A stretch of DNA of 64,000 bases from a virus (lineage: Duplodnaviria; Caudoviricetes): positions 1-64,000 of the IMG/VR virus record IMGVR_UViG_3300013105_000022, one strand, 5' to 3'. Shown in pieces: positions 44 through 13,593 of the stretch. The notes under the pieces were generated by a model that did no database searches, had not been told where the DNA came from, and was given only the letters and a program-made list of their open reading frames with translations. The number at the start of each line of letters is the position of its first letter. Position 1 is the stretch's first letter. A program made the translations under genes and the position numbers.

Positions 44-120
44 GGTGGTAGAGGCAGAGCGGTTGTTGCAACAGGTTGTGAGCCTGTCCCCTGGCGGGTT
101 CGATTCCCGTCTATCACCCA
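44..120 (+). tRNA. tRNA-His(GTG)
   Basis: Cloverleaf; ACAGG-TTGTGAG-CCTGT anticodon arm, GGTTCGATTCC T loop, extended acceptor. Confidence 0.9.
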
Positions 121-164
121 GAGCGGTTGTAGGTAACGCGGAGACATCCGGTGGAACCTAATTT

Positions 165-237
165 GGCTCTATGATGTAAAGGTAAGCATGTCAGCTTGTC
201 AAGCTGGATGTGGGGGTTCGACTTCCCCCTAGAGTCG
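165..237 (+). tRNA. tRNA-Asp(GTC)
   Basis: TCAGC-TTGTCAA-GCTGG, TTCGACT T loop, GGCTCTA/TAGAGTC acceptor, G73. Confidence 0.9.
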
Positions 238-242
238 CAAAA

Positions 243-295
243 AGCTCTTGAGAAAGAGCTTGACAATACGTCTGGAAGGGCGTATAACTAAGACA
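243..295 (+). promoter_or_regulatory. Promoter of GOLLD/tRNA operon with an inverted repeat abutting the -35
   Basis: AGCTCTT-GAGA-AAGAGCT hairpin, TTGACA 260-265, 17 nt, TATAACT 283-289. Confidence 0.75.
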
Positions 296-1085
296 TGGGG
301 CATGACCCATAAGCATCCGTGAGGGTGTGAAAGAGAGTGTGACAACCTCTCGCCAGGCAACTGGTACCTCATGCAATCTGAGTGATTCACTTATCCGGTG
401 CCAAGCTGGGTAAGCGACATTCGAGTCACCTGAAGCACCCTAGGGCCGACCGGCGAGGGGTGGCCACCTGTTCTCGCAGTGTGGAAAAGGATCATGACAA
501 GAGTGTTGTTCATGCAGAGGGTGAGTTAGTTCGAGGCCTGTCAGCCAAGAGCAATCACCACGAGTCACAAGTATTGGACCGGAGGGTTCAAGAAAATGGG
601 ACAAGAAATGTAAGTAGCCTGACAGCGAACGCATTCGAAGGTGTGTAGTATTCTGAATCTCAAAAGGGTTCGGAGCTACATGAGAAAGCACATCTTCAGT
701 CAAATACCGCATCATTAGCTCATTGGCAGAGCAATTCCCTCTAACGGAATAGGCGGCAGGTTCAATTCCTGCATGTTTATGCAAAACACAAGCGAAAGCC
801 TTTCTCGTCAGGTAACGAAAGTGCCTTAATCCTCAGCACGTAAGTGAACTGAGGCAACTGGAAGCTCGCAAGGCCAAGGTTGTTCATAGGAAAGTAGCAG
901 GAGTTCAGGAGCTTAGCGGCCCCTGTTCGGTTGCAAAATCCGTGGAGTAAGTACCTGATTCTGGGGTGGTGCCCCGTAAAATCCACCAGGCATGACAAGT
1001 ACAGTGGCGACACTGTGGAGAAGTCGGGAACCAATAATCCGGCGAAAGCTTGTTACGATAGGATGTATTCTCAGTCCTCTTCACC
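295..1085 (+). ncRNA. GOLLD RNA (~790 nt) with embedded tRNA
   Basis: No credible ORF, dense hairpins, inside a phage tRNA cluster; GOLLD-like segments recalled by eye (GGTGTGTAGTATTC..CTCAAAAGG..GCACATCTT, GCTCGCAAGG, GGGAACCAATAATCC..GTATTCTCAG). Confidence 0.8.
709..783 (+). tRNA. tRNA with CUA (amber) anticodon inside the GOLLD linker
   Basis: TAGCTCATTGGCAGAGC D arm, ATTCC-CTCTAAC-GGAAT, GCAGG-TTCAATT-CCTGC; acceptor has a 3-nt bulge. Confidence 0.75.
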
Positions 1086-1113
1086 CTCCGGGGCCTCGAA
1101 ACCCCCGGAATTT

Positions 1114-1185
1114 GGTCTCATCGTATAGCGGCTAATACGCTAGGTTCTCAGCCTAGTAACCGGGGTTCGATTCCCCGTGGGATCA
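1114..1185 (+). tRNA. tRNA-Glu(CTC)
   Basis: CTAGG-TTCTCAG-CCTAG; canonical T arm. Confidence 0.92.
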
Positions 1186-1186
1186 C

Positions 1187-1255
1187 GCAAGCGTGTAGTT
1201 TAAGAAAAACACCGAGCAAGGCTCGGAGTTGGGGAAATGTCCCCCACGTGAGCCA
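1187..1255 (+). ncRNA. tRNA-like element with a 3-nt loop in place of the anticodon loop
   Basis: GCGTG/CACGT acceptor, GTTT/AAAC D stem, CCGAGC-AAG-GCTCGG, GGGG/CCCC T stem. Confidence 0.55.
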
Positions 1256-1258
1256 TAT

Positions 1259-1330
1259 GGCCCCATCGTTTAGTGGTTAGGACGCTGGTCTTTCAAGCCG
1301 GTAATGAGGGTTCGATTCCCTCTGGGGTCA
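1259..1330 (+). tRNA. tRNA-Glu(TTC)
   Basis: CTGGT-CTTTCAA-GCCGG; canonical arms. Confidence 0.92.
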
Positions 1331-1404
1331 CGTTGTAGCAACATTCCTCCCACGGATAGCTATTCGGTTCAAATCCGACGCGAGACGGCGATAGGGTCAC
1401 ATAA

Positions 1405-1487
1405 CCTGAGTTATACCGTAGGGGTAGCGGGACTGGCTGTAACCCAGTTGCCATTAGGCTCGGGGAGTTCGACTCTCTCACTCAGGA
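1405..1487 (+). tRNA. tRNA-Tyr(GTA), long variable arm
   Basis: ACTGG-CTGTAAC-CCAGT; CCTGAGT/ACTCAGG acceptor. Confidence 0.9.
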
Positions 1488-1616
1488 CGCAACACAAAAC
1501 AGTTATGAGCTTGCCGCGTAAGCGGTAAGTTCTTGAGGCTTCTGGTCAACGAAAAAGCCTACAGGCTGGCGAACCCAAGCGCTACACCTGAGCACGTGTT
1601 AGTAAACTGCTCATAC

Positions 1617-1690
1617 GGGAGTAGAAGAGCCAAGGATGACAGGGCTGACTGTAAATCAGTTCGTGGTAGGTTCGATTCCTACTGCTCCCA
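1617..1690 (+). tRNA. Atypical tRNA-Tyr(GTA), short variable loop, poor D stem
   Basis: GCTGA-CTGTAAA-TCAGT; GTAGG-TTCGATT-CCTAC; GGGAGTA/TGCTCCC. Confidence 0.7.
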
Positions 1691-1771
1691 CGCATGGCGC
1701 AATATTCGGACGTTGAGGATTAGTGACCTTCAACCATTAGTGAGCGCTGGCAGGGAATCGTCTCAACACTA

Positions 1772-1839
1772 GGGACGAGGCAAATGAGCACTCCGGCCTG
1801 ATAAAGCCGGTGGACTGGGTTGGACTCCCAGACGTGCCA
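1772..1839 (+). pseudogene. Degenerate tRNA-Ile(GAT)-like gene
   Basis: CCGGC-CTGATAAA-GCCGG (8-nt loop), CTGGG-TTGGACT-CCCAG, mismatched acceptor. Confidence 0.5.
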
Positions 1840-1875
1840 CATCGGCAGGTTGGTGTAAGGACCATTTCCCTTTAT

Positions 1876-1948
1876 GGGACTTTGGCGTAGCTGGAGCGCG
1901 CGACCGTCTGAAGAGCGGTAGGACAGGGTTCGATTCCCTGAGGTCCCA
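1876..1948 (+). tRNA. tRNA-Phe(GAA)
   Basis: ACCGT-CTGAAGA-GCGGT; canonical T arm. Confidence 0.9.
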
Positions 1949-2038
1949 CAGTAGGCGCGCTAGGCGTCGAAGCCGGAAACTCACTCAAAGCCCGGACGCA
2001 GGAGGAAGCTTTCGAGACGTTTCTCCACCCTAGTATAT

Positions 2039-2111
2039 GGCTTCGTAGGCAACGGAAGACCACTCTGACTTAGAATCAGTGATGCTGTGGGTTCGAATCC
2101 CACCGGAGCTA
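2039..2111 (+). tRNA. tRNA-Leu(TAG), short variable loop
   Basis: TCTGA-CTTAGAA-TCAGT; GTGGG-TTCGAAT-CCCAC. Confidence 0.85.
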
Positions 2112-2112
2112 C

Positions 2113-2196
2113 GCTCGTTTGGTGAAACAGGTAGACACGCCAGTCTCAGAAGCTGGTGCCCGATAGGGCGTGCGGGTTCGACTCCCGTGATGAGCA
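2113..2196 (+). tRNA. tRNA-Leu(CAG)
   Basis: CCAGT-CTCAGAA-GCTGG; long variable arm. Confidence 0.92.
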
Positions 2197-2287
2197 CAAT
2201 GTTGGGGCAATGCGTACGGCACAATTTGAGACACCGCAGGAGTAGCGACGGACCTCAGCCCAACATCTAGGATTCCTCTGTGAATAC

Positions 2288-2371
2288 GCGCGAGTGATGG
2301 AATAGGTAGTCTTGCCAGAATGAGAGTCTGGTGTCCGAAAGGGCGTGGGGGTTCGAGTCCCCTCTTGCGCA
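2288..2371 (+). tRNA. tRNA-Leu(GAG)
   Basis: CCAGA-ATGAGAG-TCTGG; long variable arm. Confidence 0.9.
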
Positions 2372-2395
2372 CAATGAGACCCCAAGGAGGGCAAT

Positions 2396-2746
2396 ATGGA
2401 ATTCGAACTTTACTCCAGCTATTTCGGAGAGAACGCCCCTCGTGTCATCACTGATGTTGAGTGGGTCGATGAACTTGAGCTTGACAACGCTTCATATCAG
2501 TTCTACATCCTCCTTGTCGTCAAGAGAGAAGACGGGTACTACCTGTCCACTGACTCTGGATGCTCCTGCCCAACGCCGTGGGAGAACCACACGTTCCCGG
2601 AGAGCTTCACCGGTCCTCTGACGGCAGAGCAGGCACGTGAGGAGTCTTCTTCCCTCATCGAGGGAGCACAGGAGACAGCGCGTAACGGCTACTCTGAAGG
2701 TCCCGACGAGTATAGGGCTAAGGCACTGCTCGCCAAGATCGTCTAA
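2396..2746 (+). CDS. Hypothetical phage protein (DSGCSCPTPWE motif)
   Basis: AAGGAGG SD, phage-like codon usage, followed by a terminator. Confidence 0.8.
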   Translation: MEFELYSSYFGENAPRVITDVEWVDELELDNASYQFYILLVVKREDGYYLSTDSGCSCPTPWENHTFPESFTGPLTAEQAREESSSLIEGAQETARNGYSEGPDEYRAKALLAKIV

Positions 2747-2749
2747 CTA

Positions 2750-2788
2750 GAAAACCCCAGGTCAGCACATGATCTGGGGTTTTTCTTT
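2750..2788 (+). terminator. Intrinsic terminator
   Basis: AAAACCCCAGGTCA..TGATCTGGGGTTTTTCTTT. Confidence 0.85.
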
Positions 2789-2864
2789 GCCTGAACGGCC
2801 TTACAGGCGTATACATGAGCTAGACTAGAAGCTGTATAACCAGCCATACCCCAGGGAGAACCTT

Positions 2865-3119
2865 GTGTCAATCCTCAGTGATAGCCTGAAGGACGTACGT
2901 GAGCCAAAGCAGAAGCCGAGCAACTTCAGGAAGTGGCTCGACTCTCTTTCAGAGGAGGATCGTAAGATCGCTCTGGATGCTATGCACGACAAGACCATTC
3001 TGAAGACCCACTTGCAGGAAGCCTTCAAGAGGGCAGGCCTTCAGGTCTCTAAGGACACTCTCAACAGGATCAGAGAGCAACTGCAAGACGGAACTCTCAA
3101 GGACGAGGACATTCGATGA
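2865..3119 (+). CDS. Small hypothetical protein, possibly DNA-binding
   Basis: GTG start with GGAG SD; ATGA overlap with next gene. Confidence 0.7.
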   Translation: MSILSDSLKDVREPKQKPSNFRKWLDSLSEEDRKIALDAMHDKTILKTHLQEAFKRAGLQVSKDTLNRIREQLQDGTLKDEDIR

Positions 3120-4336
3120 GTGAGCTAGGCGAAGACATCCAGAAGGCCAAGGAGAAGGCGCAAGCCGCTATCAAGGCCGATGAGTACTTCATGAAGGATT
3201 CCGAAGGTAACTTCAAGGAAGCCACCCTCATGGCTACAACAGCCTGGGGAGAGGATGATTGGAAGGCCTGGCTTCTTGAGCAGGGTACCAATCCGGAAGA
3301 TGTCACCTTCACCTTTGGAGTAACTTCCAATCCGTCCGGTGGTTACTGGAACAAGCTCCTCAATGTCAAGTACAAGAACAAGAATTTGGACGACGAAGGC
3401 GTGCCTCTGTGGCCTGTCATCCAGCCTTCCACGACCGTCTATAAGCTACGTCCCGTAGTCAAGACTCCGAAGGTCTCCAAGTTCAAGACAGCCGTGATCG
3501 GTGCAGACACTCAGATCGGCTTCGACATGGACGACCAGGGCAACCTGTACCCGTACCATGACGACCAGGCTATGGATGTCTTCCTCCAGGTCGTACAGCT
3601 TGAGGACCCAGACCAGACGATTCTTGCCGGTGACATCCTAGACCTTGCAGAGCAGGGCCGATGGGCACAGGAAGCTCGATTCGCGAACACCACACAGCAT
3701 GCCCTAGAGCGTGGCCGTAGGTTCGCCGCTGAGACCCGAGCCGCTACCAGTGGAGAGATTCACTGGATCGAGGGTAACCACGACAAGCGAATGCAGGGCT
3801 TCATGGAAGCCAACGCGAAGAGCGCTATGGGACTTCGTAAGGCCGGATACCCAGACTCGTGGCCTGTGATGAGTCTCCCGAATCTGATTGGTCTCGATGA
3901 CTTCGATACCACCTACATCGACGCATACCCAGCCGGACAGCACTGGATCACCGACAACCTCCGTGTGATTCATGGCACCAAGAGCCGTAGCAACGGTTCT
4001 ACGGCCTCAGCGTATGCCAACACGACTCCACACCTGTCTACCATCTTTGGACACTCTCACAGGCTTGAGATTCAGTCCAAGACGATCTTCGACAGGGCAG
4101 GCAAGATCAGGACGATGAACGTCAACCCTGGATGCCTGTGTCGTATCGACGGTGCAGTACCTTCCGTGCACGGTGCACGACACCTGGACGGCTCTAAGGC
4201 CACGTTCTACGAGGACTGGCAACAGGGCGTGGCAGTGATCCGCTACCGCGACACCGGCGAGTTCTACGTGGAACTCATCCAGATCGACAACGGCAAAGGC
4301 TTCTACGGTGGCCAAGAGCTAGAGTCACGTGTCTGA
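3116..4336 (+). CDS. Calcineurin-like metallophosphoesterase
   Basis: DTQ, GDILD, GNHD, IHG, GHSH motifs in order. Confidence 0.85.
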   Translation: MSELGEDIQKAKEKAQAAIKADEYFMKDSEGNFKEATLMATTAWGEDDWKAWLLEQGTNPEDVTFTFGVTSNPSGGYWNKLLNVKYKNKNLDDEGVPLWPVIQPSTTVYKLRPVVKTPKVSKFKTAVIGADTQIGFDMDDQGNLYPYHDDQAMDVFLQVVQLEDPDQTILAGDILDLAEQGRWAQEARFANTTQHALERGRRFAAETRAATSGEIHWIEGNHDKRMQGFMEANAKSAMGLRKAGYPDSWPVMSLPNLIGLDDFDTTYIDAYPAGQHWITDNLRVIHGTKSRSNGSTASAYANTTPHLSTIFGHSHRLEIQSKTIFDRAGKIRTMNVNPGCLCRIDGAVPSVHGARHLDGSKATFYEDWQQGVAVIRYRDTGEFYVELIQIDNGKGFYGGQELESRV

Positions 4337-4971
4337 TGAGTGTGATTTCCGTAGAGAGGGCCTTGTGCCCAAAATGCGGCACACTTCAGCCTAGAGACGA
4401 GTGGCCTACCTATCCTGACGGAAAATATAGAAGAACATGTAGAGAGTGCAAGCGCGCCAAGGATAGAGAATACGCGGCTAGAACTGCCGAGAAGAGACGC
4501 AAAGTATCAAGCGCTTGGATCAAGGCACACCCAGAGGTAAACAGGTCTAGGGTGAAAGCGTGGCAAAAGAAAAATCCGGAAAAGGCCAGAGAGACCAGAA
4601 GAGCTTGGTACAAGAATAACCCAGAGAAAGTTCACGCCAGCAATCGCGCCTCCTATCTGAGAAATAAGGACGTACACTTCGCAAAAGCGGCTAGATACAG
4701 AGCCAGGAAGCGGGAGGCCGAGTGCGGTTGCGTAGATAAAAGCTTTCGTCAGACTCTGATTAGAGCATATGGAGCTTCTTGTTTCTACTGCGGGGGTTCT
4801 TATGAGCACACCGACCACTTCGTACCTCTTGCTGGCGGAGGAATGAACTGTATTTCAAATCTAGTTCCATCCTGTGCTAACTGCAACCTGTCCAAGAAGG
4901 CGAAGCAAGTAGAGGACTGGACCGGATGGAACGGCAAGAGTCCGACGCTTGAGTGCCCCAGTAAGCGATAG
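4336..4971 (+). CDS. HNH homing endonuclease
   Basis: CFYCG..DHFVPLAGGG.N...NLVPSCANCNLSK; N-terminal Zn ribbon and basic helices. Confidence 0.9.
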   Translation: MSVISVERALCPKCGTLQPRDEWPTYPDGKYRRTCRECKRAKDREYAARTAEKRRKVSSAWIKAHPEVNRSRVKAWQKKNPEKARETRRAWYKNNPEKVHASNRASYLRNKDVHFAKAARYRARKREAECGCVDKSFRQTLIRAYGASCFYCGGSYEHTDHFVPLAGGGMNCISNLVPSCANCNLSKKAKQVEDWTGWNGKSPTLECPSKR

Positions 4972-4982
4972 TAGGAAGTATC

Positions 4983-5129
4983 ATGGAAGCATCATTCGAT
5001 GAGGAAGTCAACGCCTACTACTTCGGTGACGAAGACACCACAGTAGCGAAGGTCGTAGACCTCGGAAGCCGACACGTCTTCGTGGACGTAGACCATAACG
5101 GAAAGATTGTTGGGGTCGAAGTCCTCTAA
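4983..5129 (+). CDS. DUF2283-like small protein (48 aa)
   Basis: MEASFDEEVNAYYF..VFVDVDHNGKIVGVEVL. Confidence 0.65.
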   Translation: MEASFDEEVNAYYFGDEDTTVAKVVDLGSRHVFVDVDHNGKIVGVEVL

Positions 5130-5168
5130 GGACTTGACATCTGACTCTAGAGGGGCGATAGTAGAGCT

Positions 5169-5471
5169 ATGGAAGCTATCACACAGACAGAACCCGTCGT
5201 CACGGTAACGGACGCGGAGACCATCGAGTTCAGTATCGACCTCCCTGGCGTTGAGGACTATGTGCCTTGCGAGCAGTGCGACTCCACTGTGAAGAACGGT
5301 GTCATCGCATCCACTCGTTCGTACATGTTCTTCTTCTACAAGGACGGCCTCTTCTCCTTCTGCAAGCACCACGGAGAGAAGAACCAGGCCAAGCTCGAAG
5401 AACTGGGCGGAACACTGGTACTGGATACCCGTGATCGCCTCATCGAGAACCGGCTTCAGGGACAACTCTGA
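5169..5471 (+). CDS. Hypothetical Cys/His Zn-binding protein
   Basis: CEQC..FCKHH; leaderless after TTGACA-N17-GATAGT. Confidence 0.75.
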   Translation: MEAITQTEPVVTVTDAETIEFSIDLPGVEDYVPCEQCDSTVKNGVIASTRSYMFFFYKDGLFSFCKHHGEKNQAKLEELGGTLVLDTRDRLIENRLQGQL

Positions 5472-5617
5472 AAAATTTCTGACAGTTTGGGCCTTCCGGC
5501 TCAGATGTATGTTACAGTAGGACACATGAGTACAAATCAGACCATCGCAACGCGCGGAGCCTCGAAGCAGGTATCCGGCGTTAAGAGGCCTGTCTAGATT
5601 CATAAAACTAGACTTCC

Positions 5618-5686
5618 AAGAGCCTCTTCAGAGAAATCTGACAGAGGCTCTTGACATTTACGGGGGAAGCCCGTAAGATTAAGACA
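5618..5686 (+). promoter_or_regulatory. Promoter of second tRNA operon with an inverted repeat at the -35
   Basis: AAGAGCCTCT..AGAGGCTCTT overlapping TTGACA, 17 nt, TAAGATT-AAGAC-A. Confidence 0.7.
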
Positions 5687-5818
5687 TAGCCTCCTTGGGG
5701 GAAGAAATTCCGGACAGGATGAGCACTAGAACTCTGGGTAAAGCGCTACGGCGGCTCCCCGTCAAGTACACAGTGGAATCCGATACGGGACCAGGACGTA
5801 AGAGCCTGGCCCCGGAAT

Positions 5819-5905
5819 GGAGTAGTCGCCTAGAGGCCTATGGCGCTTGTCTGGAAAGCAAGTTGGGTACCCAATCCCTCGCAGGTTCGAATCCTGTCTA
5901 CTCCG
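5819..5905 (+). tRNA. tRNA-Ser(GGA)
   Basis: CTTGT-CTGGAAA-GCAAG; long variable arm; G73. Confidence 0.92.
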
Positions 5906-5908
5906 CAA

Positions 5909-5979
5909 AGGGAAGAGCGTGAAGCATGCTTAAAATCGCCTCTAAAGCGGTTGATACTGGGGTAGCGTCCAGTTTCCCT
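5909..5979 (+). ncRNA. Divergent tRNA-like gene with CUA anticodon
   Basis: AGGGAA/TTCCCT, ATCGC-CTCTAAA-GCGGT, ACTGG-GGTAGCGT-CCAGT (no TTC). Confidence 0.55.
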
Positions 5980-5982
5980 ATA

Positions 5983-6070
5983 TGGAGATGTGGTCGAGAG
6001 GCTTATGGCGTCTGTTTCGAAAGCAGAAGTGGCGTTAAACCCACCGCAGGTTCAAATCCTGTCATCTCCG
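5983..6070 (+). tRNA. tRNA-Ser(CGA)
   Basis: TCTGT-TTCGAAA-GCAGA; long variable arm. Confidence 0.92.
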
Positions 6071-6216
6071 CGTTACCACACGTCGTCTTTGTGCGGCTAG
6101 GGTTGCATCCTTACTGAACCGAATCCTGTGACTTGCTAGATAGGGCCACGGGGAGGAGGGTTTGGGTCCGCGAGACACAAGGGGGTTGCTCTTACCTTTA
6201 TCTAGGTGGTATCTTT

Positions 6217-6299
6217 GGAAGGTAAGCGAATGGAAAGCGCGTTGTTTTGAAAGCAATTATCCGGTAACACGGTTGCAGGTTCGAGTCCTGTACCTTCCG
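6217..6299 (+). tRNA. tRNA-Ser(TGA)
   Basis: GTTGT-TTTGAAA-GCAAT; long variable arm. Confidence 0.88.
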
Positions 6300-6300
6300 C

Positions 6301-6384
6301 GAAACCCACGAGAAATTCCAGTTCGACTCTGGTATAGTCCACCACATGGGCTATCCTGCCGGTGCCAGGACTTGTGGGCGTTTT
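6301..6384 (+). ncRNA. Circularly permuted tRNA-like RNA (YrlA-like topology)
   Basis: CCCACGAG/CTTGTGGG stem enclosing, in order, T arm, loop-closed acceptor, D arm. Confidence 0.7.
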
Positions 6385-6471
6385 GGAGATATGGCCGAGA
6401 GGCTTATGGCGTCACTTTGCTAAAGTGAAGTAGGTTGAAATCTACCGCAGGTTCGAATCCTGTTATCTCCG
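6385..6471 (+). tRNA. tRNA-Ser(GCT)
   Basis: TCACT-TTGCTAA-AGTGA; long variable arm. Confidence 0.92.
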
Positions 6472-6573
6472 CGTTGACCGGTTAGGAGTTTCTAGTAACA
6501 CTTCTCCGGCACAGTGGGCATGATGCTAGATGATGGCCCACACTTGACTTAAGTGGGGTAGCTCCCCTAAAGT

Positions 6574-6628
6574 CGTCCTGGTACTGGTGTACGGTACCTG
6601 TTCCCGTTCGATTCGGGAAGCCAGGGCG
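6574..6628 (+). ncRNA. Mini tRNA-like RNA lacking the anticodon arm
   Basis: CGTCCTGGT/GCCAGGGCG, small D-like hairpin, TTCCCG-TTCGATT-CGGGAA. Confidence 0.55.
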
Positions 6629-6787
6629 CAAACTTTCAAGACTAAGTACTAGAATTGACATTTCTAGTCCCCACTCGGTCGGGGAATCGTGCCGAGGGTG
6701 TTTAGCTGGATCATCGTAAAGAAAAGCGGTCTTATCCTACCAGAACGGGATACGCGAGGGGGGTGACCTGTCATCATCGCCTCTTAT

Positions 6788-6858
6788 GGGTCTAAGGTGT
6801 TACGGTAGCACTGGGCGCTCTTAACGCTCAAGCCAGGGTTCGACTCCCTGTAGACCCA
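6788..6858 (+). tRNA. tRNA-Lys(CTT)
   Basis: GGGCG-CTCTTAA-CGCTC. Confidence 0.88.
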
Positions 6859-7055
6859 CGTATGGGGTGACTCCCATTCCACTCCGGTATGTCCCGGACG
6901 TTTTTGCCTTCTCAGTGTATCGATAACAAAGAGAGCGTTATGTACGTACGAGAAGCGTGCACGTGTAAGTACAGTTGACGATACCAACACCGGGCAGTCC
7001 CTCTCGTATTCATGGGACCACGAAGGGGAGTTCCTAGTCAGTTCTAGCCCTTTAT

Positions 7056-7128
7056 GCCTCCGTAACTCAGCGGCTAGAGTAGCTGACTCTTAATCAGCGA
7101 GTCGTGGGTTCGAATCCCACCGGGGGTA
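7056..7128 (+). tRNA. tRNA-Lys(CTT)
   Basis: GCTGA-CTCTTAA-TCAGC; canonical. Confidence 0.95.
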
Positions 7129-7198
7129 CGGTGTTTGTGAGTAGCACCCATACCGGTAAAACTCATCGCATTCCGTCTGTGCGTAATCAGGCGGGCAT

Positions 7199-7271
7199 GG
7201 GGTATGAGCCATGATGGTGACGGCACCAGTCTTCCAAACTGGTTAGGTGGGTTCGATTCCCGCATACCTCT
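7199..7271 (+). tRNA. tRNA-Gly(TCC)
   Basis: CCAGT-CTTCCAA-ACTGG; U73. Confidence 0.88.
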
Positions 7272-7376
7272 CTCAACGCCGTAGGTTCGATTCCTGAAAT
7301 AGCTCGCTGGTGCGTGTGCGGCGCTGTACCAATGATTTACGCCGAGGGTTGCATTCAAACTAACTCCAGGCCCAAC

Positions 7377-7447
7377 GTCTATATGGTGAAATGGTATCAT
7401 CTCAGCTTGCCAAGCTGAGGGCGCGGGTTCGATTCCCGCTATAGGCT
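7377..7447 (+). tRNA. tRNA-Gly(GCC)
   Basis: TCAGC-TTGCCAA-GCTGA; U73. Confidence 0.9.
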
Positions 7448-7452
7448 CTCGT

Positions 7453-7635
7453 GGATTCAGTAAGTCAACATCTTGAAATGCAGGACGGCGGGGAGCTATT
7501 GGCGTAGCGGTGATCCGGCGAGCAGTTGGTGTTCATGGACATGATAACAAGATGAAGGACGACTGGGGTTTTTCATAGGTGATCCTGCTACCTCCTCCTT
7601 TCGGCCCTGTAGCGGCGTACCTGCTTACTGAATCC
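7453..7635 (+). ncRNA. ~183 nt rod-shaped RNA (6S-like size and shape)
   Basis: GGATTCAGTAAGT/GCTTACTGAATCC closing helix plus nested helices and an internal bubble. Confidence 0.5.
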
Positions 7636-7735
7636 CAATTGTGCCCTAGGGGCGGTGTTGGCCGATACCAACGAGGAATATCCGCGCTTGCGCAGTGAAC
7701 AACCTCAGGAGTCGTAGCACGTCGTAAGGGACTTT

Positions 7736-7807
7736 GCCCCTCTAGTTCTAGTGGTAAAACACCGGTCTTGTAAACCGGCTTCAGGAGTTCGATTCTTCTG
7801 AGGGGCA
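7736..7807 (+). tRNA. tRNA-Thr(TGT)
   Basis: CCGGT-CTTGTAA-ACCGG. Confidence 0.9.
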
Positions 7808-7912
7808 CGCTAGCAAACGGCTGAAAAAGGGATTGTAGTAAGCCAGTCTTCCAAACCAGAATCCCCGAAAGACACAGGCTCGAAAGAGTGCTAACTGTTA
7901 GGGAAGACATAT

Positions 7913-7983
7913 GCCGGATTAGCATAGTGGTAGTGCACCTGTTTCGTAATCAGGTAGCGCGGGTTCGATTCCCGCATTTGGCT
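7913..7983 (+). tRNA. tRNA-Thr(CGT)
   Basis: CCTGT-TTCGTAA-TCAGG. Confidence 0.88.
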
Positions 7984-8126
7984 CAAAGGGTGCAGGCTCA
8001 TATTTGTCTGCTCAATAGAGGATGCTAAATCCGACGCCTGAGGGTAGGAATGCCCGTCTCGCGAGACGAAATCCGTTGGGGTGTATGACCTCAGGAAGGG
8101 CGATAGTAGGTGCCCAATCATGCCAT

Positions 8127-8198
8127 GCCGCTTTAGCTCAGGGGTAGAGCATCTGCATGGTAAGCAGAAGGCCGTGGGTTCGAGACCCACAAGTGGCT
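8127..8198 (+). tRNA. tRNA-Thr(GGT)
   Basis: TCTGC-ATGGTAA-GCAGA. Confidence 0.9.
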
Positions 8199-8305
8199 CA
8201 GGGACGAATGTGACCTCATCACGCCACCCTATAAAGGCAGAACTTGAGGACGTTGAATGGGTTTTGGCTGACCTCTCACGGGCAATACGAGAAGTTGCCC
8301 TCTAT

Positions 8306-8378
8306 GGATGTGTGGCGCAGTGGCTAGCGCACCTGTATGACTCACAGGAGGTCGAGAGTTCGAATCTCTCCACATCTA
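8306..8378 (+). tRNA. tRNA-Val(GAC)
   Basis: CCTGT-ATGACTC-ACAGG. Confidence 0.9.
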
Positions 8379-8438
8379 CGCTTGACATCTGCAAGGATCG
8401 TCCCTAGACTGGTAACAACCAATCAAGAGGAGGGCACA

Positions 8439-8876
8439 ATGCCTTGTAGAGTTGAACTGTCGGAAGCAGAACTGGAAGCCGAGCGTCAGGCACGCTCCAA
8501 CCGCGAAATCGCTAAGGCCCTGAAGCCGGTGCAGGATCGCAATGACGACCTCACACACGAGAACGATCTTCTCCGTGAGACCATCCTGAACGTCGTCAAC
8601 GTCTTGGGAGACGAGGCCAAGAGCCTGATCCCGGACAAGCTCTTGAAGCACATCGAGCAGGATCAGGTAGAGCATCGCAAGGAAGACCTTCGCCGCCTGG
8701 AAGCCACACTGAACGAAAAAGTGGCGGTCCTTTACAAGGGCAAGAACTTCCGTGCAGGAGAGCAGGGTTGGAAGGAGGAGCGCAACGTTCTTTTCGATCA
8801 CATGCACCGCGTTTACACGGCTGATCCCAAGCTCCCGCTTGAGCCTCAACTTGGCTTCGATCCCGACAGCTACTAA
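8439..8876 (+). CDS. Hypothetical coiled-coil protein
   Basis: Own TTGACA/TAGACT promoter and GAGGAGG SD; start MPCRVELS. Confidence 0.8.
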   Translation: MPCRVELSEAELEAERQARSNREIAKALKPVQDRNDDLTHENDLLRETILNVVNVLGDEAKSLIPDKLLKHIEQDQVEHRKEDLRRLEATLNEKVAVLYKGKNFRAGEQGWKEERNVLFDHMHRVYTADPKLPLEPQLGFDPDSY

Positions 8877-8952
8877 GAATTGATACCCGGCAGGGCTTGT
8901 GATGATGTCACCTGTCTGGTATCTTTGGACTAGCTCACCTTACGGGCTATAC

Positions 8953-9022
8953 GGTTCGCGGGGTGGTTTCCTCCCCTGAGTTTTACACACTCGGACGCAC
9001 GGTTCAATTCCGTGGCGAACTA
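8953..9022 (+). tRNA. Atypical tRNA-Val(TAC), 6-bp anticodon stem
   Basis: GGTTCGC/GCGAACT, CTGAGT-TTTACAC-ACTCGG, CACGG-TTCAATT-CCGTG. Confidence 0.7.
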
Positions 9023-9065
9023 CAGTCTTGAATCGGACACTAGACTCTTGGAAGGAGGACCCGTC

Positions 9066-9554
9066 ATGACTGCATACGTAGAGCTTTACAATCAAGGTGC
9101 ATGCCTTGACGACAGCGGTTCCATCAAGGGTCAGCTTCTGAAGAGGATTTCGGTTCAGAAGGCTATGAACATGATGTGGCGCGGTGTCGCCAGGATTCTG
9201 GACGTGGACGAAGGAACCTTCGGACAGTTCGAGAAGCCCCGAGCATTGGAGTTGGTTAGATACGTCTACACCAAGTGGATGTACGAGCGCAAGGGCGAGA
9301 TTCGTCCGACGCGGCGCACCATCCTCCGACGCGACGACTACACATGCACGTACTGTGGCCAGTACGGTGACACGCTTGACCACATCCAGCCCCGCTCGCG
9401 CGGTGGTAAGGACTCGTGGGAGAACCTGATTACCGCTTGCCTCAAGTGCAACAACGTCAAGGACGACAGGACCCCTCAGGAAGCTGGCATGAAGCTCAGG
9501 TTCCAGCCGAGGGTACCTGAGTTCAAGGAAATCTACTCGTGGGGACGAGGCTAA
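9066..9554 (+). CDS. HNH endonuclease
   Basis: RDDYTCTYCG..TLDHIQPRSRGGKDSWENLITACLKCNNVK. Confidence 0.92.
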   Translation: MTAYVELYNQGACLDDSGSIKGQLLKRISVQKAMNMMWRGVARILDVDEGTFGQFEKPRALELVRYVYTKWMYERKGEIRPTRRTILRRDDYTCTYCGQYGDTLDHIQPRSRGGKDSWENLITACLKCNNVKDDRTPQEAGMKLRFQPRVPEFKEIYSWGRG

Positions 9555-9556
9555 AT

Positions 9557-9829
9557 ATGACGTACTACGACAACAAAGAAGCCCTGAAGGGCACTGTTAG
9601 GGAGCTTGCCGCCAAGAGGCTGGGAGCTTCCGACACAGACAAGATCGAGTATGGAACGTACACCTGGGACTCCGGTTTCTGTGAGACGTGTTCGTACACC
9701 GAATACGAGTTCGTCGTTCTCCTGAACGGCGAGGTCGTATACGACTCAAAAGGCAACCAGTACATCGACGGATACGACATCTTCGGGGCATTCCAGGAAT
9801 GGCTCGATGGAGTAGAAGAGAAGTACTGA
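9557..9829 (+). CDS. Hypothetical protein (GFCETC motif)
   Basis: Follows the HNH gene; GAGG SD. Confidence 0.7.
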   Translation: MTYYDNKEALKGTVRELAAKRLGASDTDKIEYGTYTWDSGFCETCSYTEYEFVVLLNGEVVYDSKGNQYIDGYDIFGAFQEWLDGVEEKY

Positions 9830-9958
9830 GAACCCCACAGGACAGCTACTTGTCTCCTGGCCTATAACCGATTTGCGGATAGCGGCGAAGGTAGTCGTTG
9901 GGTATACTGGAACGAGCTAGGTATACAAGTCGGGAGGGTACGTGAATCCCTCCCATAT

Positions 9959-10033
9959 TCCTCTGTAGCGCTCCAGGCGAGTGCGCCACGCTGTTAACGT
10001 GGAGGTAGGTTGGTTCGAGTCCAGCCAGGGGAG
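9959..10033 (+). tRNA. tRNA-Asn(GTT)
   Basis: CCACG-CTGTTAA-CGTGG; G73. Confidence 0.85.
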
Positions 10034-10236
10034 CTACCCGATATACACCGAGCAGTGCCACCACACTGGGCTAACTCGGAACCGATGTACCGCGACGGCG
10101 GAACTGCATCTAGGGCAGGCATACGAAGTGGTGGATTGAAGGATAGCATTACTACGAGGACACGTACGACCTTAGTGGTGGCTCATCCTCTCCGTGGAAG
10201 TCGGGGCGTGCCGTGGCCACGATACAAAGCCGCCTT

Positions 10237-10308
10237 ACCCCTGTAGCTCAGTGGCAGAGCAGGAAGCTGTTAACTTCAAGGTCGTTGGTTCGAATCCAGC
10301 CAGGGGTG
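10237..10308 (+). tRNA. tRNA-Asn(GTT)
   Basis: GGAAG-CTGTTAA-CTTCA; canonical D/T arms. Confidence 0.9.
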
Positions 10309-10373
10309 CTCTACAAACAAAGAAAACTAGAAAACAACTTGACAACCAACCAGAACAGGCGTAAAAATAGATC

Positions 10374-11453
10374 ATGACTTACTACATCAGAGCAGGAGCG
10401 CGGTTCAACGTCGCAGACAAGAACGCGCTGAACCTCCAGGAGAACCTTCCTGTAGGCACTTACACTGTCGGCTGGGACGAGATGAACAGCCGCTTCTTCC
10501 TCTCAATGGTCGCGAACCTGGAAATCTCCGGTAAGGTCTACGGAGACACCAACAAGGTCACCGAGCGCATCTTCACCACGTTCATGGATCGCCCGGCTTC
10601 GACCGGTGTCATGCTCGCGGGTGAGAAGGGTTCAGGTAAGACCCTCCAGGCCAAGAAGCTGAGTCACATCGGCCTCCAGAACAACATCCCGACCATCATC
10701 ATCAACCAGCCGTGGCACGGTGAACTGTTCAACCAGTTCATGCAGACCATCGATCAGCCTACGATCATTCTCTTCGATGAGTTCGAGAAGACGTACGATG
10801 AGCAGAAGTCTCAGGAAGCACTCCTGACTCTCTTCGATGGGGTCTACCCGTCCAAGAAGATGTTCGTCATCACGTGCAACGACTCGTACCGCATCAACCA
10901 GCACTTGAAGAACCGTCCCGGTCGTATCTACTACCGCAAGGACTACAAGGGTCTGGAGCGCGAGTTCATCGAGGAGTACTGCCGTGACAACCTCAAGAAC
11001 CAGGCCAACATGGAGGGCGTCTGCAAGATCGCAGTAGCTTTCTCGGAGTTCAACTTCGACATCCTCAAGGCTATGGTCGAGGAGATGAACCGCTACGACG
11101 AGACGGCTCAGGAGACGATGAGTTTCCTGAACGCTCGCCCTGAGTTCAGCAACATGGCTGACTACGAGGGATTCATCCTCTCTGAGGACAAGAAGATTGC
11201 CGTCACTTGGAGGGGTGCACCGCTGAACGGTAACCCCATCCGCATCTACTTCACCGCTCCCGGTGCCGCTAAGGACTGGGAAGACAGCCTCCTGGGGCTG
11301 GATGAGGACGGAGACGGCTCTGCCGAGTTCCTTGTCTCTGACCTTGTGAAGGTCGATGCTCAGACAGGATCGTTCCTCTTCGTGAACAGCGAGAAGGTCG
11401 AACTTCACCTGACCAAGAAGGTCGAAAAGACCTACAATTACAACGCCTTCTGA
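10374..11453 (+). CDS. AAA+ ATPase
   Basis: Walker A GEKGSGKT, Walker B ILFDEFEK, NRPGRI arginine finger. Confidence 0.9.
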   Translation: MTYYIRAGARFNVADKNALNLQENLPVGTYTVGWDEMNSRFFLSMVANLEISGKVYGDTNKVTERIFTTFMDRPASTGVMLAGEKGSGKTLQAKKLSHIGLQNNIPTIIINQPWHGELFNQFMQTIDQPTIILFDEFEKTYDEQKSQEALLTLFDGVYPSKKMFVITCNDSYRINQHLKNRPGRIYYRKDYKGLEREFIEEYCRDNLKNQANMEGVCKIAVAFSEFNFDILKAMVEEMNRYDETAQETMSFLNARPEFSNMADYEGFILSEDKKIAVTWRGAPLNGNPIRIYFTAPGAAKDWEDSLLGLDEDGDGSAEFLVSDLVKVDAQTGSFLFVNSEKVELHLTKKVEKTYNYNAF

Positions 11454-11638
11454 ACATGATCGTATTCATGCCTTTCTCAAGGACTAACGGATTGCGGGAC
11501 TTCCTGGCTCTGGTCACGAGGTTCATGCTCTAGAATTCCGACAGTCAATCTTCAGTAGACCCGAGTGCTTTACTGATTATGGACGGGAATGCCGGAGGGC
11601 GATAAACTCTCAGGGGTGCGACTGAACAACGCACATAC

Positions 11639-11710
11639 GCCGCTATGGTCCAATGGATACGATACTAGGCTACGAACCTGGGGATTTCAGTTCGATTCTG
11701 AATAGTGGTA
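11639..11710 (+). tRNA. tRNA-Arg(ACG)
   Basis: CTAGG-CTACGAA-CCTGG. Confidence 0.9.
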
Positions 11711-11743
11711 CGTTACCCCTTTCATCTGTGATAAGATGGAAGG

Positions 11744-12142
11744 ATGAACACACGAGTACAAGAATGGCGAGAGTCAAAGAGAAAGCCGTGTCCCGGTGGA
11801 TGCGGAACTACTGTGGCTTACGACACTGTTCTATGCCGATCTTGTCACTCACTAGCTAAGCGTGACCGAGCACTGGATAAGACAGTCGGTGAACTCAAGG
11901 CAACAAGCAAGAGCCTAAGGTGGACCGACCACGTTCGTTACTTTGCTAGAAAGATGCATCAGTTTGCTGAGTGTGAAGTTTGCGGATACGCCAAAATGGT
12001 AGAAGTAGCTCACATCGTTGACGTGGCATCTTTTCCGGACACGGCTACTATTCGAGAAGTAAACGCAAGAGAGAACGTCAGAGGCCTATGCCCCAATCAT
12101 CACTGGGAATTTGACAACGGCGTTCTAAATGAGCCGCTATAG
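11744..12142 (+). CDS. HNH endonuclease
   Basis: CEVCG..EVAHIVDV..N.RGLCPNHHWEFD; stop codon lies inside the next tRNA. Confidence 0.88.
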   Translation: MNTRVQEWRESKRKPCPGGCGTTVAYDTVLCRSCHSLAKRDRALDKTVGELKATSKSLRWTDHVRYFARKMHQFAECEVCGYAKMVEVAHIVDVASFPDTATIREVNARENVRGLCPNHHWEFDNGVLNEPL

Positions 12143-12204
12143 TACAAGGGATAGTGCTTCTGCCTCCTAAGCAGAGAATCCAGGTTCGAGTCCTGGTAGT
12201 GGCG
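12133..12204 (+). tRNA. tRNA-Arg(CCT)
   Basis: TCTGC-CTCCTAA-GCAGA. Confidence 0.9.
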
Positions 12205-12222
12205 CGCTAGAAAGGAACAGAG

Positions 12223-12814
12223 ATGACACCTGAAGAGATTGAGGATGCGGCAACGCAACTCGTAGTGGAGCATCTTGACGAGGGTATCGAATACCTTACG
12301 GTATCTGAAGCACTCTTCGAGGAGCACGAAGAAGTCAGTGAGGAAGACACCAAGGCCGTGTTCGACAAGGCCAACCGTATCCTTACGAAGATCATCGATA
12401 TGTACTTCGAGGATGCCGACTAGTGGACGAATTCGATCACCCACTCTTCCTCCACGGTATGGATGTGGGTGAGTCCATCGGTGAATACAACGCTCAGGCT
12501 GAGGCACAGCGCGCTTACGACATGGGCGAGATTGAGCTTTGGCTCGCATTCTACAAGCCGAAGACCATTTCCGAGTGGGTCGAATGGGAATTGGAACACG
12601 GAAGATCAGGTGATTTCGAGAAAAGGTGGGCAAGATGACACAAACAATTCGGCTTACCTCTCAGGAGACCGGCGAGTTGATTGACGAATTCGAGGTAGAG
12701 GACGATGAGTTCGCTATCTGGGAAAGAGCGGCAAGCAAGATGGGTCTCACGGTCGAGGAATTCCTTGTCAAGGCAATCCACGACTTCGCAGACAATTACA
12801 AGCCCAAGAAGTAA
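12223..12814 (+). CDS. Three coupled small acidic hypothetical genes (12223-12423, 12423-12638, 12635-12814)
   Basis: Overlapping stop/start codons, SD before the first. Confidence 0.7.
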
Positions 12815-12844
12815 ACCCCCACTGAGCCGGGGTAAAGGCTCTGA

Positions 12845-12917
12845 TCCCCGGTAGTTTATGTTGGTAAAACGCCTGACTCTGAATCAGGAATGCTTGGATC
12901 GTCGCCAGGCTGGGGAG
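12845..12917 (+). tRNA. tRNA-Gln(CTG) with aberrant T loop
   Basis: CCTGA-CTCTGAA-TCAGG; T loop ATCGTCG. Confidence 0.8.
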
Positions 12918-12983
12918 CGAGGTAGCTATTTCACCTACGACAAATGGTCGCGAACTAGATCGTAGTGCGGTAGTTACCCACAT

Positions 12984-13054
12984 ACCGGAGTGGTGTAAAG
13001 GTAGCACAAGAGACTTTGACCCTCTTAGACTTGGTTCGATACCAGGCTCCGGTG
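12984..13054 (+). tRNA. tRNA-Gln(TTG)
   Basis: AGAGA-CTTTGAC-CCTCT; ACCGGAG/CTCCGGT acceptor. Confidence 0.85.
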
Positions 13055-13205
13055 CAATGCGAGGCCCACCCGCCATATGCAAATGCTAAGTGAGTGGCGC
13101 TCTGGGAGTTGCAACCCTCGCAGAAAGTCCTCAGGTAAGCAAGGCCAAATGTAATTACGACCTGAGGCAAGTTTTCGATAGTAGTCAGTGACTGAAGGAG
13201 TCATC

Positions 13206-13373
13206 ATGTACGATCCACAGATTGGCGACACCTGGACAAGGAACGGTCGCGAACTTCACATCATCCAGAGTGACCCGCTGAACAGCAGGGTTCAGATCGA
13301 GTACACGGAGTCAAGGCGTACGCGCTGGATCGACGTTGCCGACCTTCTTGCTAAGTACACCTTCGTAGCTTAG
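13206..13373 (+). CDS. Small hypothetical protein
   Basis: GAAGGAG SD; stop lies inside tRNA-Arg(CCG). Confidence 0.65.
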   Translation: MYDPQIGDTWTRNGRELHIIQSDPLNSRVQIEYTESRRTRWIDVADLLAKYTFVA

Positions 13374-13430
13374 AGGATAGAGCACATCCCTCCGAAGGAT
13401 GAGACACGGGTTCGAGTCCCGTCGAGGGTA
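13359..13430 (+). tRNA. tRNA-Arg(CCG)
   Basis: CATCC-CTCCGAA-GGATG. Confidence 0.92.
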
Positions 13431-13443
13431 CGTTAGGAGCATC

Positions 13444-13593
13444 ATGGCCAAGCTCATGGGCCGTATTCATTCGCGAAACTGTGACTGCAATATCGAGCAG
13501 TACGTGTCTGGTGTCGGTGAGAAGTGCAACCATCGCTACGGCGTGAAGCGCCAACGCTCCCGCGAGAAGCGACAGTGGAAGAAGGAATCGTGA
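13444..13593 (+). CDS. Small basic Cys/His protein
   Basis: AGGAG SD; ends KRQRSREKRQWKKES. Confidence 0.65.
   Translation: MAKLMGRIHSRNCDCNIEQYVSGVGEKCNHRYGVKRQRSREKRQWKKES

What the first reader, a model, noticed from the sequence alone, without database searches (positions are those of the whole stretch)
6301..6384. Circularly permuted tRNA fold opened at the anticodon, with ACCA in the acceptor loop
Seen in order: CCCACGAG (6305-12), AAATT variable loop, CCAG-TTCGACT-CTGG T arm, ATAGTCCA-CCACA-TGGGCTAT acceptor closed by a loop, CCTG-CCGGTGC-CAGG D arm, A, CTTGTGGG (6371-78). The 3' half precedes the 5' half, and discriminator + CCA lie in the linker. Known: this topology is that of the tRNA-like domain of bacterial YrlA Y RNAs and of permuted tRNA genes. 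Inference: a minimal Y RNA-like decoy, or a precursor of a chargeable two-piece tRNA that resembles an anticodon-cleaved tRNA, i.e. bait for nucleases or RNA-repair and sensing proteins.
Basis: partly seen in the sequence, partly recalled or inferred. Interest (0 to 1): 0.85.

Follow-up and report, generated by a model that had tools for sequence, protein, structure and literature searches.

The report
Back-to-front alanine-type tRNA mimic
A phage's tRNA gene cluster holds a small conserved RNA built from tRNA parts in swapped order, with no anticodon. It has an alanine-type acceptor stem capped by a built-in CCA, so it is a pared-down relative of bacterial Y-RNA tRNA mimics in a phage that has no Ro60 partner gene.

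Summary
Bases 6305-6378 fold as a four-way junction: closing stem, T arm, loop-capped acceptor stem, D arm. A strict search for this layout finds only this site and one other in the 136.5-kb phage genome, against 0.01 per shuffled genome.

I found five orthologues in related uncultured actinophage contigs. Their three sequence variants keep all 24 base pairs, and 10 pairs show compensatory changes.

These features never vary:
- a tRNA-Ala-type acceptor (G1-C72, G2-C71, G3.U70, C4-G69) with A73;
- CCA, then CAU, the leader motif that precedes this phage's own tRNAs;
- T loop UUCGA and GG in the D loop.

None of the 44 ordinary tRNAs encodes CCA.

It is not a decoding tRNA and not a tmRNA. It fails three of the four testable membership tests for YrlA: no RF02553 match, no GNCGAA motif, no Ro60 gene. 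It meets only the shared topology. Yet two related phages, one of them Microbacterium phage Magritte, carry Ro60 genes preceded by a permuted mimic. In the uncultured one the cap is the same ACCACAU.

Best reading: a stripped-down YrlA-class mimic released by tRNA processing and probably nicked by RNase P into a CCA-ended, alanine-type two-piece RNA. Its target is untested.

This scan has noted permuted tRNA mimics on other DNA before, linked to Ro60 or DUF7873. I found no partner gene here.

The parts
6217..6300 (+). tRNA-Ser(UGA). Its 3' processing would set the 5' end of the element.
   Evidence: ARAGORN; RF00005 at 37.2 bits
6301..6304 (+). 5' tail GAAA. It is nearly conserved: GUAA in L141 and L121, GAAG in L142.
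   Evidence: alignment A6
6305..6312 (+). 5' strand of the closing stem, in the place of the 3' strand of an anticodon stem
   Evidence: pairs with 6371-6378; 4 of 8 pairs changed on both sides among orthologues
6313..6317 (+). five-base linker in the place of the variable loop
6318..6332 (+). T arm: 4-bp stem and 7-base loop starting UUCGA. The would-be 49:65 pair is a mismatch in all variants.
   Evidence: one pair covaries A-U to G-C
6334..6340 (+). 3' strand of the acceptor stem (positions 66-72), with U70
   Evidence: the U.G pair is invariant in 4 of 4 sequences
6341..6344 (+). A73 and encoded CCA inside the capping loop
   Evidence: invariant in all variants; none of the 44 canonical tRNAs encodes CCA
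6345..6347 (+). CAU, resembling an RNase P leader; the predicted cut is between U6347 and G6348
   Evidence: [CT]AT precedes 17 of 44 tRNAs, against 2% background. It is kept in L142, where 3 extra bases sit between CCA and CAU. The cleavage itself is inferred.
6348..6354 (+). 5' strand of the acceptor stem (positions 1-7), with G1, G2, G3
   Evidence: the bottom four pairs and A73 match phage tRNA-Ala(UGC) at 15912
6355..6369 (+). D arm: 4-bp stem and a 7-base loop holding GG. There is no U8/N9 spacer.
   Evidence: 3 of 4 pairs changed on both sides; GG invariant
6370..6370 (+). single A in the place of position 26
6371..6378 (+). 3' strand of the closing stem
6379..6384 (+). 3' tail CGUUUU, conserved; it also serves as the leader of the next tRNA
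6385..6472 (+). tRNA-Ser(GCU). RNase P cutting at its 5' end would set the 3' end of the element.
   Evidence: ARAGORN; RF00005 at 57.4 bits

Best explanation
The stretch is a gene for an 84-base non-decoding tRNA mimic. It has the same inside-out plan as the tRNA-like head of YrlA Y RNAs, but reduced to that head alone.

It is transcribed with the tRNA operon. The cuts that mature the flanking serine tRNAs set it free (inferred).

Its acceptor hairpin is built like tRNA-Ala: G3.U70, A73 and the same bottom four pairs as the phage's own tRNA-Ala. The hairpin is capped by CCA followed by CAU, the motif that precedes this phage's tRNAs. The most likely next step is therefore an RNase P cut before G6348 and trimming back to CCA (inferred, by analogy with Mycobacterium smegmatis YrlA). 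The product would be a two-piece L-shaped RNA with a mature alanine-type acceptor end and a plain helix where the anticodon arm should be.

It would then occupy a protein that reads the acceptor, T arm or elbow of tRNA. Candidates are a host Ro60-type protein, AlaRS/EF-Tu or an acceptor-directed toxin. It could take no part in decoding. Which partner it has is not known.
For: - **Fold and rarity:** the fold is reproduced and the layout is far from chance.
- **Orthologues:** five were found.
- **Structure conserved:** 24 of 24 pairs are kept, and 10 have changes on both sides, spread over all four helices. RNAalifold gives the same structure independently.
- **Invariant features:** G1-C72, G2-C71, G3.U70, C4-G69, A73, CCA, CAU, UUCGA and GG never vary.
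- **Alanine identity is specific:** among acceptors in the genome, G3.U70 occurs only in the three tRNA-Ala genes, tRNA-Pro(UGG), this element and a second alanine-type oddity at 16171.
- **CCA is special here:** 0 of 44 tRNAs encode CCA.
- **Leader motif:** it is 19-fold enriched before the phage's tRNAs.
- **Discrete module:** in L143 the element is 84/84 identical although all 25 shared tRNAs are only 57-78% identical, and the identical tract stops at the element's ends.
- **Link to the YrlA class:** the model built from this family hits a permuted mimic in relative G024 (22.4 bits, E 5.5e-5). That mimic has the same ACCACAU cap, scores 43.3 bits full length on RF02553 and lies about 360-650 bases upstream of a Ro60 gene. 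Phage Magritte has the same arrangement.
- **Precedent:** RNase P cuts the loop-capped 7-bp acceptor of M. smegmatis YrlA (PMC4201824).
Against: - No transcript, cleavage, charging or binding datum exists.
- The element gives no RF02553 match even at E 10.
- It lacks the Ro60-binding motif, and the phage has no Ro60 gene.
- Only 24 of 301 sampled genomes of the likely host class carry one.
- The D arm lacks U8/N9 and other core bases, so a true L shape is not assured.
- Covariation rests on only three distinct sequence variants, aligned to the model's own structure.
- The family is patchy: it is absent from 41 IMG/VR relatives and from several syntenic contigs.
- The 100% identity between diverged phages may reflect recent cassette exchange rather than selection.
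Confidence: 0.55

Rival explanations
1. It is a true Y RNA. It binds a Ro60/Rsr protein supplied by the host, or by a co-infecting phage, and works as YrlA does, gating or tethering Ro60 to an exonuclease.
For: The topology is the same. Two related phages, G024 and Magritte, carry Ro60 genes preceded by a permuted mimic, and G024's has the same cap. An unrelated 68-kb phage (G044) has an alanine-type, CCA-capped closed acceptor about 0.7 kb upstream of its Ro60 gene.
Against: There is no TROVE gene in the CheckV-complete genome, by Pfam or by tblastn with the relative's Ro60. RF02553 gives no hit at E 10, and the GNCGAA motif is absent. Only an 8-bp freely covarying stem lies where the Ro60-binding helix should be. 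Ro60 was found in 8% of sampled genomes of the class.
Confidence: 0.2
2. It is a structural or processing element of the tRNA operon. It acts as a tRNA-shaped spacer that recruits RNase P or 3' processing enzymes, or blocks exonucleases, and has no function of its own after release.
For: It fills the gap between two tRNAs exactly. Other gaps in the array also hold folded units, and some relatives have a different RNA of about 100 bases in the same gap.
Against: A spacer needs no invariant alanine identity set or CCA. In L143 no tRNA was called next to it, and its position within the serine cluster differs between phages.
Confidence: 0.12
3. It is debris from rearrangement of tRNA genes, for example the junction of two tandem tRNA-Ala copies trimmed by deletions. 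Its spread would then be due to cassette exchange alone.
For: The arrays are mosaics: between this phage and L141, tRNAs are either about 100% or about 60% identical. Junctions of neighbouring tRNAs mimic this layout and were frequent false hits.
Against: Ten compensatory pairs across three variants show selection for the fold. Neither half resembles any tRNA of the genome beyond generic motifs. No canonical tRNA here encodes CCA.
Confidence: 0.05
4. It is a permuted gene for a real decoding tRNA. The two ends would be ligated to rebuild an anticodon loop, as in the red alga Cyanidioschyzon merolae.
For: The 3' half precedes the 5' half and CCA lies in the linker.
Against: The circular permutation is not called as a tRNA, with or without an intron. 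Joining the ends gives an 8-bp stem with a loop of about 10-11 bases. The phage has no RtcB or RNA ligase.
Confidence: 0.03

Closest known systems
YrlA (Y RNA-like A, Rfam RF02553), above all the Mycobacterium smegmatis form (Chen et al. 2014, PMC4201824)
   Same: Both have an inside-out tRNA head: T arm, loop-capped acceptor-like stem and D arm, enclosed by a stem made from the RNA's two ends. The M. smegmatis form has a 7-bp acceptor, is cut by RNase P and ends in CCA in vivo. Such RNAs also occur in actinophages.
   Different: Here there is no Ro60-binding module or GNCGAA motif, no RF02553 match and no Ro60 gene in the genome. CCA is encoded rather than added. The acceptor carries a full alanine identity set. 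The RNA sits between tRNAs inside the operon rather than next to rsr.
tRNA-like domain of two-piece (circularly permuted) tmRNA of alpha-proteobacteria and others (my own knowledge: Keiler, Shapiro and Williams 2000)
   Same: In both, the 3' acceptor strand with CCA is encoded upstream of the 5' strand and joined by an intervening loop that is cut out. Both have G3.U70 alanine identity and a helix in place of the anticodon arm.
   Different: Here there is no tag reading frame, no pseudoknots and no room for them (84 bases). ARAGORN's tmRNA search finds nothing. A regular D stem is present.
Permuted tRNA genes of Cyanidioschyzon merolae (my own knowledge; reviewed in PMC4090602, which I did not read)
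   Same: The 3' half is encoded before the 5' half, and the acceptor ends are linked in the precursor.
   Different: Those yield complete decoding tRNAs through a circular intermediate made by the splicing machinery. This element has no anticodon loop, and no ligase was found.
tRNA-Ala and alanine minihelices (my own knowledge: G3.U70 rule)
   Same: Both have G1-C72, G2-C71, G3.U70, A73 and CCA on a 7-bp acceptor stacked on a T arm. AlaRS needs no anticodon.
   Different: Here the acceptor end is closed by a loop until something cuts it. Charging has not been tested.

Membership tests
YrlA (RF02553) | T arm, acceptor-like hairpin and D arm, in that order, enclosed by a stem formed by the two ends | tested here: met
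YrlA (RF02553) | Match to the Rfam covariance model at or above 69 bits | tested here: not met
   No match even at E 10. For comparison, the Ro60-linked RNA of relative G024 scores 43.3 bits full length.
YrlA (RF02553) | GNCGAAN0-1G motif near the 5' end, the presumed Ro60 contact (PMC4201824) | tested here: not met
   Read directly from the sequence: the nearest string fails at the first and last G, and it is not conserved in L141.
YrlA (RF02553) | Encoded within about 4 kb of a Ro60/TROVE gene on the same strand | tested here: not met
   No TROVE gene in the 136.5-kb genome.
YrlA (RF02553) | Bound by Ro60/Rsr | not testable with these tools
   needs a pull-down or gel shift
Canonical tRNA (RF00005) | Anticodon arm, and 5' and 3' ends at the acceptor stem | tested here: not met
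   No call by ARAGORN or RF00005 on the native or the permuted order.
Permuted tRNA gene (C. merolae type) | Joining the ends restores a normal anticodon stem-loop | tested here: not met
   the joined ends give an 8-bp stem with a loop of about 10-11 bases
Two-piece tmRNA | Alanine-type acceptor with the CCA strand upstream of the 5' strand | tested here: met
Two-piece tmRNA | Resume codon, tag reading frame and pseudoknots | tested here: not met
   The element is only 84 bases between two tRNAs. ARAGORN -m finds no tmRNA in the genome.
Alanine acceptor identity | G3.U70 with A73 and G2-C71 on a 7-bp stem ending in CCA | tested here: met
   invariant in all variants
Alanine acceptor identity | Charged by AlaRS | not testable with these tools
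   needs a charging assay on the nicked RNA

The most novel reading that the evidence does not exclude
The RNA needs no Ro60. RNase P opens its cap, host AlaRS charges it, and the phage uses this anticodon-less alanyl-RNA as a working molecule. It might act like a tag-less mini-tmRNA head on EF-Tu, SmpB or the ribosome. Or it might be a decoy for a defence toxin that attacks tRNA acceptor ends.
Probability: 0.2. Interest if true: 0.85.

Novelty: new variant of a known kind. Interest (0 to 1): 0.62.

Why it matters
What the tRNA-like head of Y RNAs does is still an open question. Here the head occurs alone: I found no Ro60-binding arm and no partner gene. It has sequence features that make sharp, cheap predictions, namely the RNase P cut site, a CCA end and alanine charging.

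If the predictions hold, phage tRNA clusters encode non-decoding, possibly chargeable tRNA mimics alongside real tRNAs. Standard tRNA finders miss all of them. A cultured relative, Microbacterium phage Magritte, carries the Ro60-linked cousin, so the two forms can be compared at the bench.

Tried and rejected
- **Rfam at E 10.** No family matches.
- **Single-sequence model R1.** It found nothing in 41 related IMG/VR records. Orthologues came only through the neighbouring phosphoesterase gene and one metagenome pattern scan.
- **Other pattern scans.** They gave either nothing or chance or trivial hits:
  - a normal tRNA-Phe;
  - three non-folding metagenome hits;
  - seven bacterial hits, all non-folding and none near a called tRNA;
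  - a tRNA-Phe/tRNA-Leu junction.
- **Hits of the second model (R2).** Many are plain junctions of neighbouring tRNAs and were set aside.
- **Derivation from a resident tRNA.** Rejected: neither half resembles any tRNA of the genome beyond generic motifs.
- **RNA-repair and other partner genes.** RtcB, RNA ligase (PF09414), CCA-adding enzyme and TROVE are all absent. No DUF7873 or other candidate partner turned up among about 48 ORFs of this genome scanned against Pfam or PHROGs. I had no accession for a direct search, so this is not an exclusion.
- **Access limits.** The full contigs behind L141, L142, L143 and L149 could not be reached. Family names were not returned for the host-class Ro60 survey.

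Full report
**Setting.** The window is the first 64 kb of a 136,515-base IMG/VR virus record that CheckV rates complete.
- It carries 44 tRNA genes on one strand. Thirty-eight lie at 45-18101 and six at the far end of the record. A GOLLD RNA lies at 636-1077.
- The major capsid protein is 62% identical to that of Microbacterium phage Magritte and has 169 relatives in IMG/VR. This is therefore an actinophage of a large, mostly uncultured clade.
- The flagged 84 bases fill exactly the gap between tRNA-Ser(UGA) at 6217-6300 and tRNA-Ser(GCU) at 6385-6472.

**The observation.**
- The unconstrained minimum-free-energy fold gives the same four-way junction at -28.1 kcal/mol. That stability is not unusual for the composition (z = -1.9).
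- What is unusual is the layout. I wrote a strict descriptor requiring a T loop of the TT[CA]RA type and four perfect helices in the order closing stem, T arm, capped 7-8-bp hairpin, D arm.
- It hits only this site and 135968-136037 in both strands of the genome.
- It gave 0.01 hits per dinucleotide-shuffled genome. Two of 200 shuffles had one hit and none had two. It hit none of 20000 shuffles of the gap itself.

**Relatives.** A model of the single sequence found nothing in 41 related virus records.
- A loop-anchored pattern found one syntenic metagenome contig, L121, in which the element is 83/84 identical although the neighbouring serine tRNAs are 61-80% identical.
- Homologues of the phosphoesterase gene 2 kb upstream led to further syntenic contigs.
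- L143 has the element 84/84 identical, although all 25 shared tRNAs are only 57-78% identical. The identical tract stops within a few bases of the element's ends.
- L141 is 83/84 identical.
- L149 is 74% identical, and its copy lies between Ser(CGA) and Ser(UGA).
- L142 is 67% identical, and its copy lies between Ser(GCU) and Arg(UCU).
- The element is missing from L144, L147, L148 and L154-L158. In three of those (L144, L148, L149) an unrelated RNA of about 100 bases fills the Ser(UGA)-Ser(GCU) gap.
- The element is thus a discrete, movable module with a patchy distribution.

**Structure is under selection.** On the model-guided alignment of the three variants, all 95 cells pair. Ten of 24 pairs have changes on both sides: four in the closing stem, one in the T stem, two in the acceptor stem and three in the D stem. 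Sliding the partners by one to three columns drops pairing to 20-47%, with at most one such pair. RNAalifold predicts the same structure on its own. There are only three variants and the alignment leans towards the model, so the numbers are modest, but the signal is in every helix.

**What never varies.** The fixed features are:
- G1-C72, G2-C71, G3.U70 and C4-G69;
- A73 and CCA;
- CAU just before G1;
- the T loop start UUCGA and GG in the D loop.

Three comparisons show these features are not incidental.
- G3.U70 with A73 is the classical alanine identity set (established knowledge). In this genome G3.U70 occurs otherwise only in the three tRNA-Ala genes, in tRNA-Pro(UGG) and in one more oddity at 16171. 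The bottom four pairs equal those of tRNA-Ala(UGC) at 15912.
- None of the 44 ordinary tRNAs encodes CCA, and 43 have only C74.
- [CT]AT at -3 to -1 precedes 17 of 44 tRNAs, against 2% background. The cap therefore reads as discriminator, CCA, then a tRNA leader. In L142 the cap is three bases longer, and the extra bases sit exactly between CCA and CAU.

**What it is not.**
- *Not a decoding tRNA.* It has no anticodon loop, and the circular permutation is not called as a tRNA.
- *Not a tmRNA.* There is no room for a tag frame, and ARAGORN finds none.
- *Not a YrlA member by three of the four tests I could run.* It gives no RF02553 match at E 10 and lacks the GNCGAAN0-1G motif (against PMC4201824). 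The genome has no TROVE gene, either by Pfam or by tblastn with a related phage's Ro60. It meets only the shared topology.
- *No repair or maturation enzymes in the phage.* It also lacks RtcB, RNA ligase and a CCA-adding enzyme.

**What it is related to.** The model built from the family (R3) hits a stand-alone permuted mimic in the complete relative G024, at 115337-115414, with 22.4 bits and E 5.5e-5.
- That mimic has the identical cap ACCACAU and a canonical D arm.
- The next gene downstream is a TROVE (Ro60) protein.
- The RNA scores 43.3 bits full length on RF02553, below the 69-bit threshold but significant.
- Magritte has the same pair: the mimic at 75779-75856 and TROVE at 76637-77551.
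- An unrelated 68-kb phage (G044) has an alanine-type, CCA-capped closed acceptor about 0.7 kb upstream of its Ro60 gene. My pattern selected for the acceptor sequence but not for the Ro60 gene.

The element therefore belongs to the wider class whose archetype is YrlA, while lacking what defines YrlA functionally.

**A second family in the same genome.** A second permuted family (135966-136040, right after tRNA-Pro) is conserved with compensatory changes in nine or more relatives. Those that could be searched for a Ro60 gene lack one. Ro60 occurs in 24 of 301 sampled genomes of the class. Dependence on a phage-encoded Ro60 is clearly not general.

**Mechanism.** Shown: this is a conserved structured RNA gene with alanine-type acceptor features. 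Everything below is inferred.
- Release would come from the 3' and 5' cuts that mature the flanking tRNAs.
- RNase P would cut before G6348. The published precedent is M. smegmatis YrlA, which has a 7-bp capped acceptor, is cut by RNase P in vitro and carries CCA in vivo.
- Trimming to CCA would follow.
- The product would then either be charged by AlaRS or simply occupy a tRNA-binding protein.

I cannot choose between a charged mimic, a decoy and a Ro60 ligand.

**Earlier notes of this scan.** They report many permuted tRNA mimics on other DNA, next to Ro60 or to DUF7873 genes. Those notes prompted me to scan the genes beside the G024 mimic. I found no DUF7873 among about 48 ORFs of this genome scanned against Pfam or PHROGs, which is not an exclusion.

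Noticed in passing
own genome 135966-136040 (L005:11966-12040), beyond the window: There is a second permuted tRNA-like RNA directly after tRNA-Pro(UGG). It has canonical U8-A9, D arm and T arm, and no CCA. Orthologues follow tRNA-Pro in nine or more relatives, with compensatory changes in the closing, T and D stems and a variable capped hairpin. RF02553 matches only the head (28.8 bits).
   Followed up: partly
window 16171-16230: This is a tRNA-Ala-like gene without an anticodon arm, right after the three tRNA-Ala genes. It has a 7-bp acceptor with G3.U70 and A73, a D arm and a T arm, with about 10 bases where the anticodon arm and variable loop should be. Its acceptor is identical to that of the L142 variant of the flagged element.
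   Followed up: partly
window about 6576-6627: This is another tRNA-shaped unit with acceptor, D-like and T arms but no anticodon arm, in the 315-base gap after tRNA-Ser(GCU).
   Followed up: no
L150 1483-1594 (G024:115321-115432, minus strand); OR553905.1 75779-75856 and 76637-77551: Related phages G024 and Microbacterium phage Magritte encode Ro60 (TROVE) preceded by a CCA-capped permuted tRNA mimic. G024 has a second Y-like RNA between the two (RF02553, 32.4 bits). Magritte's record does not annotate these RNAs in the stretch examined.
   Followed up: partly
L138 15128-15200 and 15272-15344, minus strand (relative G034): Two more perfect permuted cloverleaves lie 70 bases apart in a 20-kb stretch with no ordinary tRNA. 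One has U73-CCA in its cap. No Ro60 gene was found in that 93%-complete genome.
   Followed up: no
L144 9016-9116, L148 5768-5866, L149 10503-10602: In these relatives a different conserved RNA of about 100 bases, with no T loop, fills the gap between tRNA-Ser(UGA) and tRNA-Ser(GCU).
   Followed up: no
window 45-18101 compared with L141 and L143: The tRNA arrays are mosaics. Against L141 some tRNAs are 97-100% identical and others 57-70%. Against L143 all are 57-78%. This points to cassette-wise exchange of single tRNA-sized modules between phages.
   Followed up: partly
all 44 tRNA genes of the genome: 43 of 44 have C at position 74 but none has CCA. 29 of 44 have U at -1 and 17 of 44 have [CT]AT at -3 to -1.
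   Followed up: partly
window 636-1077, with 713-775: This is a GOLLD RNA (213.9 bits) with an embedded tRNA-like segment (RF00005, 47.4 bits) at the head of the tRNA array.
   Followed up: no
window about 1616-1690: This may be a tRNA-Tyr-like gene with an odd D region, missed by ARAGORN and Rfam. It lies in the 387-base gap after tRNA-Tyr.
   Followed up: no
L155 10133-10194 and 5218-5312: The first site is a three-way junction of closing stem, T arm and D-like arm with no acceptor hairpin at all. The second is a permuted unit with a much longer capped hairpin. Both suggest further variants of the same theme.
   Followed up: no
L166 5393-5882, minus strand (unrelated viral contig): A phage tmRNA is followed at once by a nested alanine-type tRNA-like structure with two T arms. 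Contigs L160, L165 and L167 show repeated GGUCCACCA ends of a similar kind.
   Followed up: no
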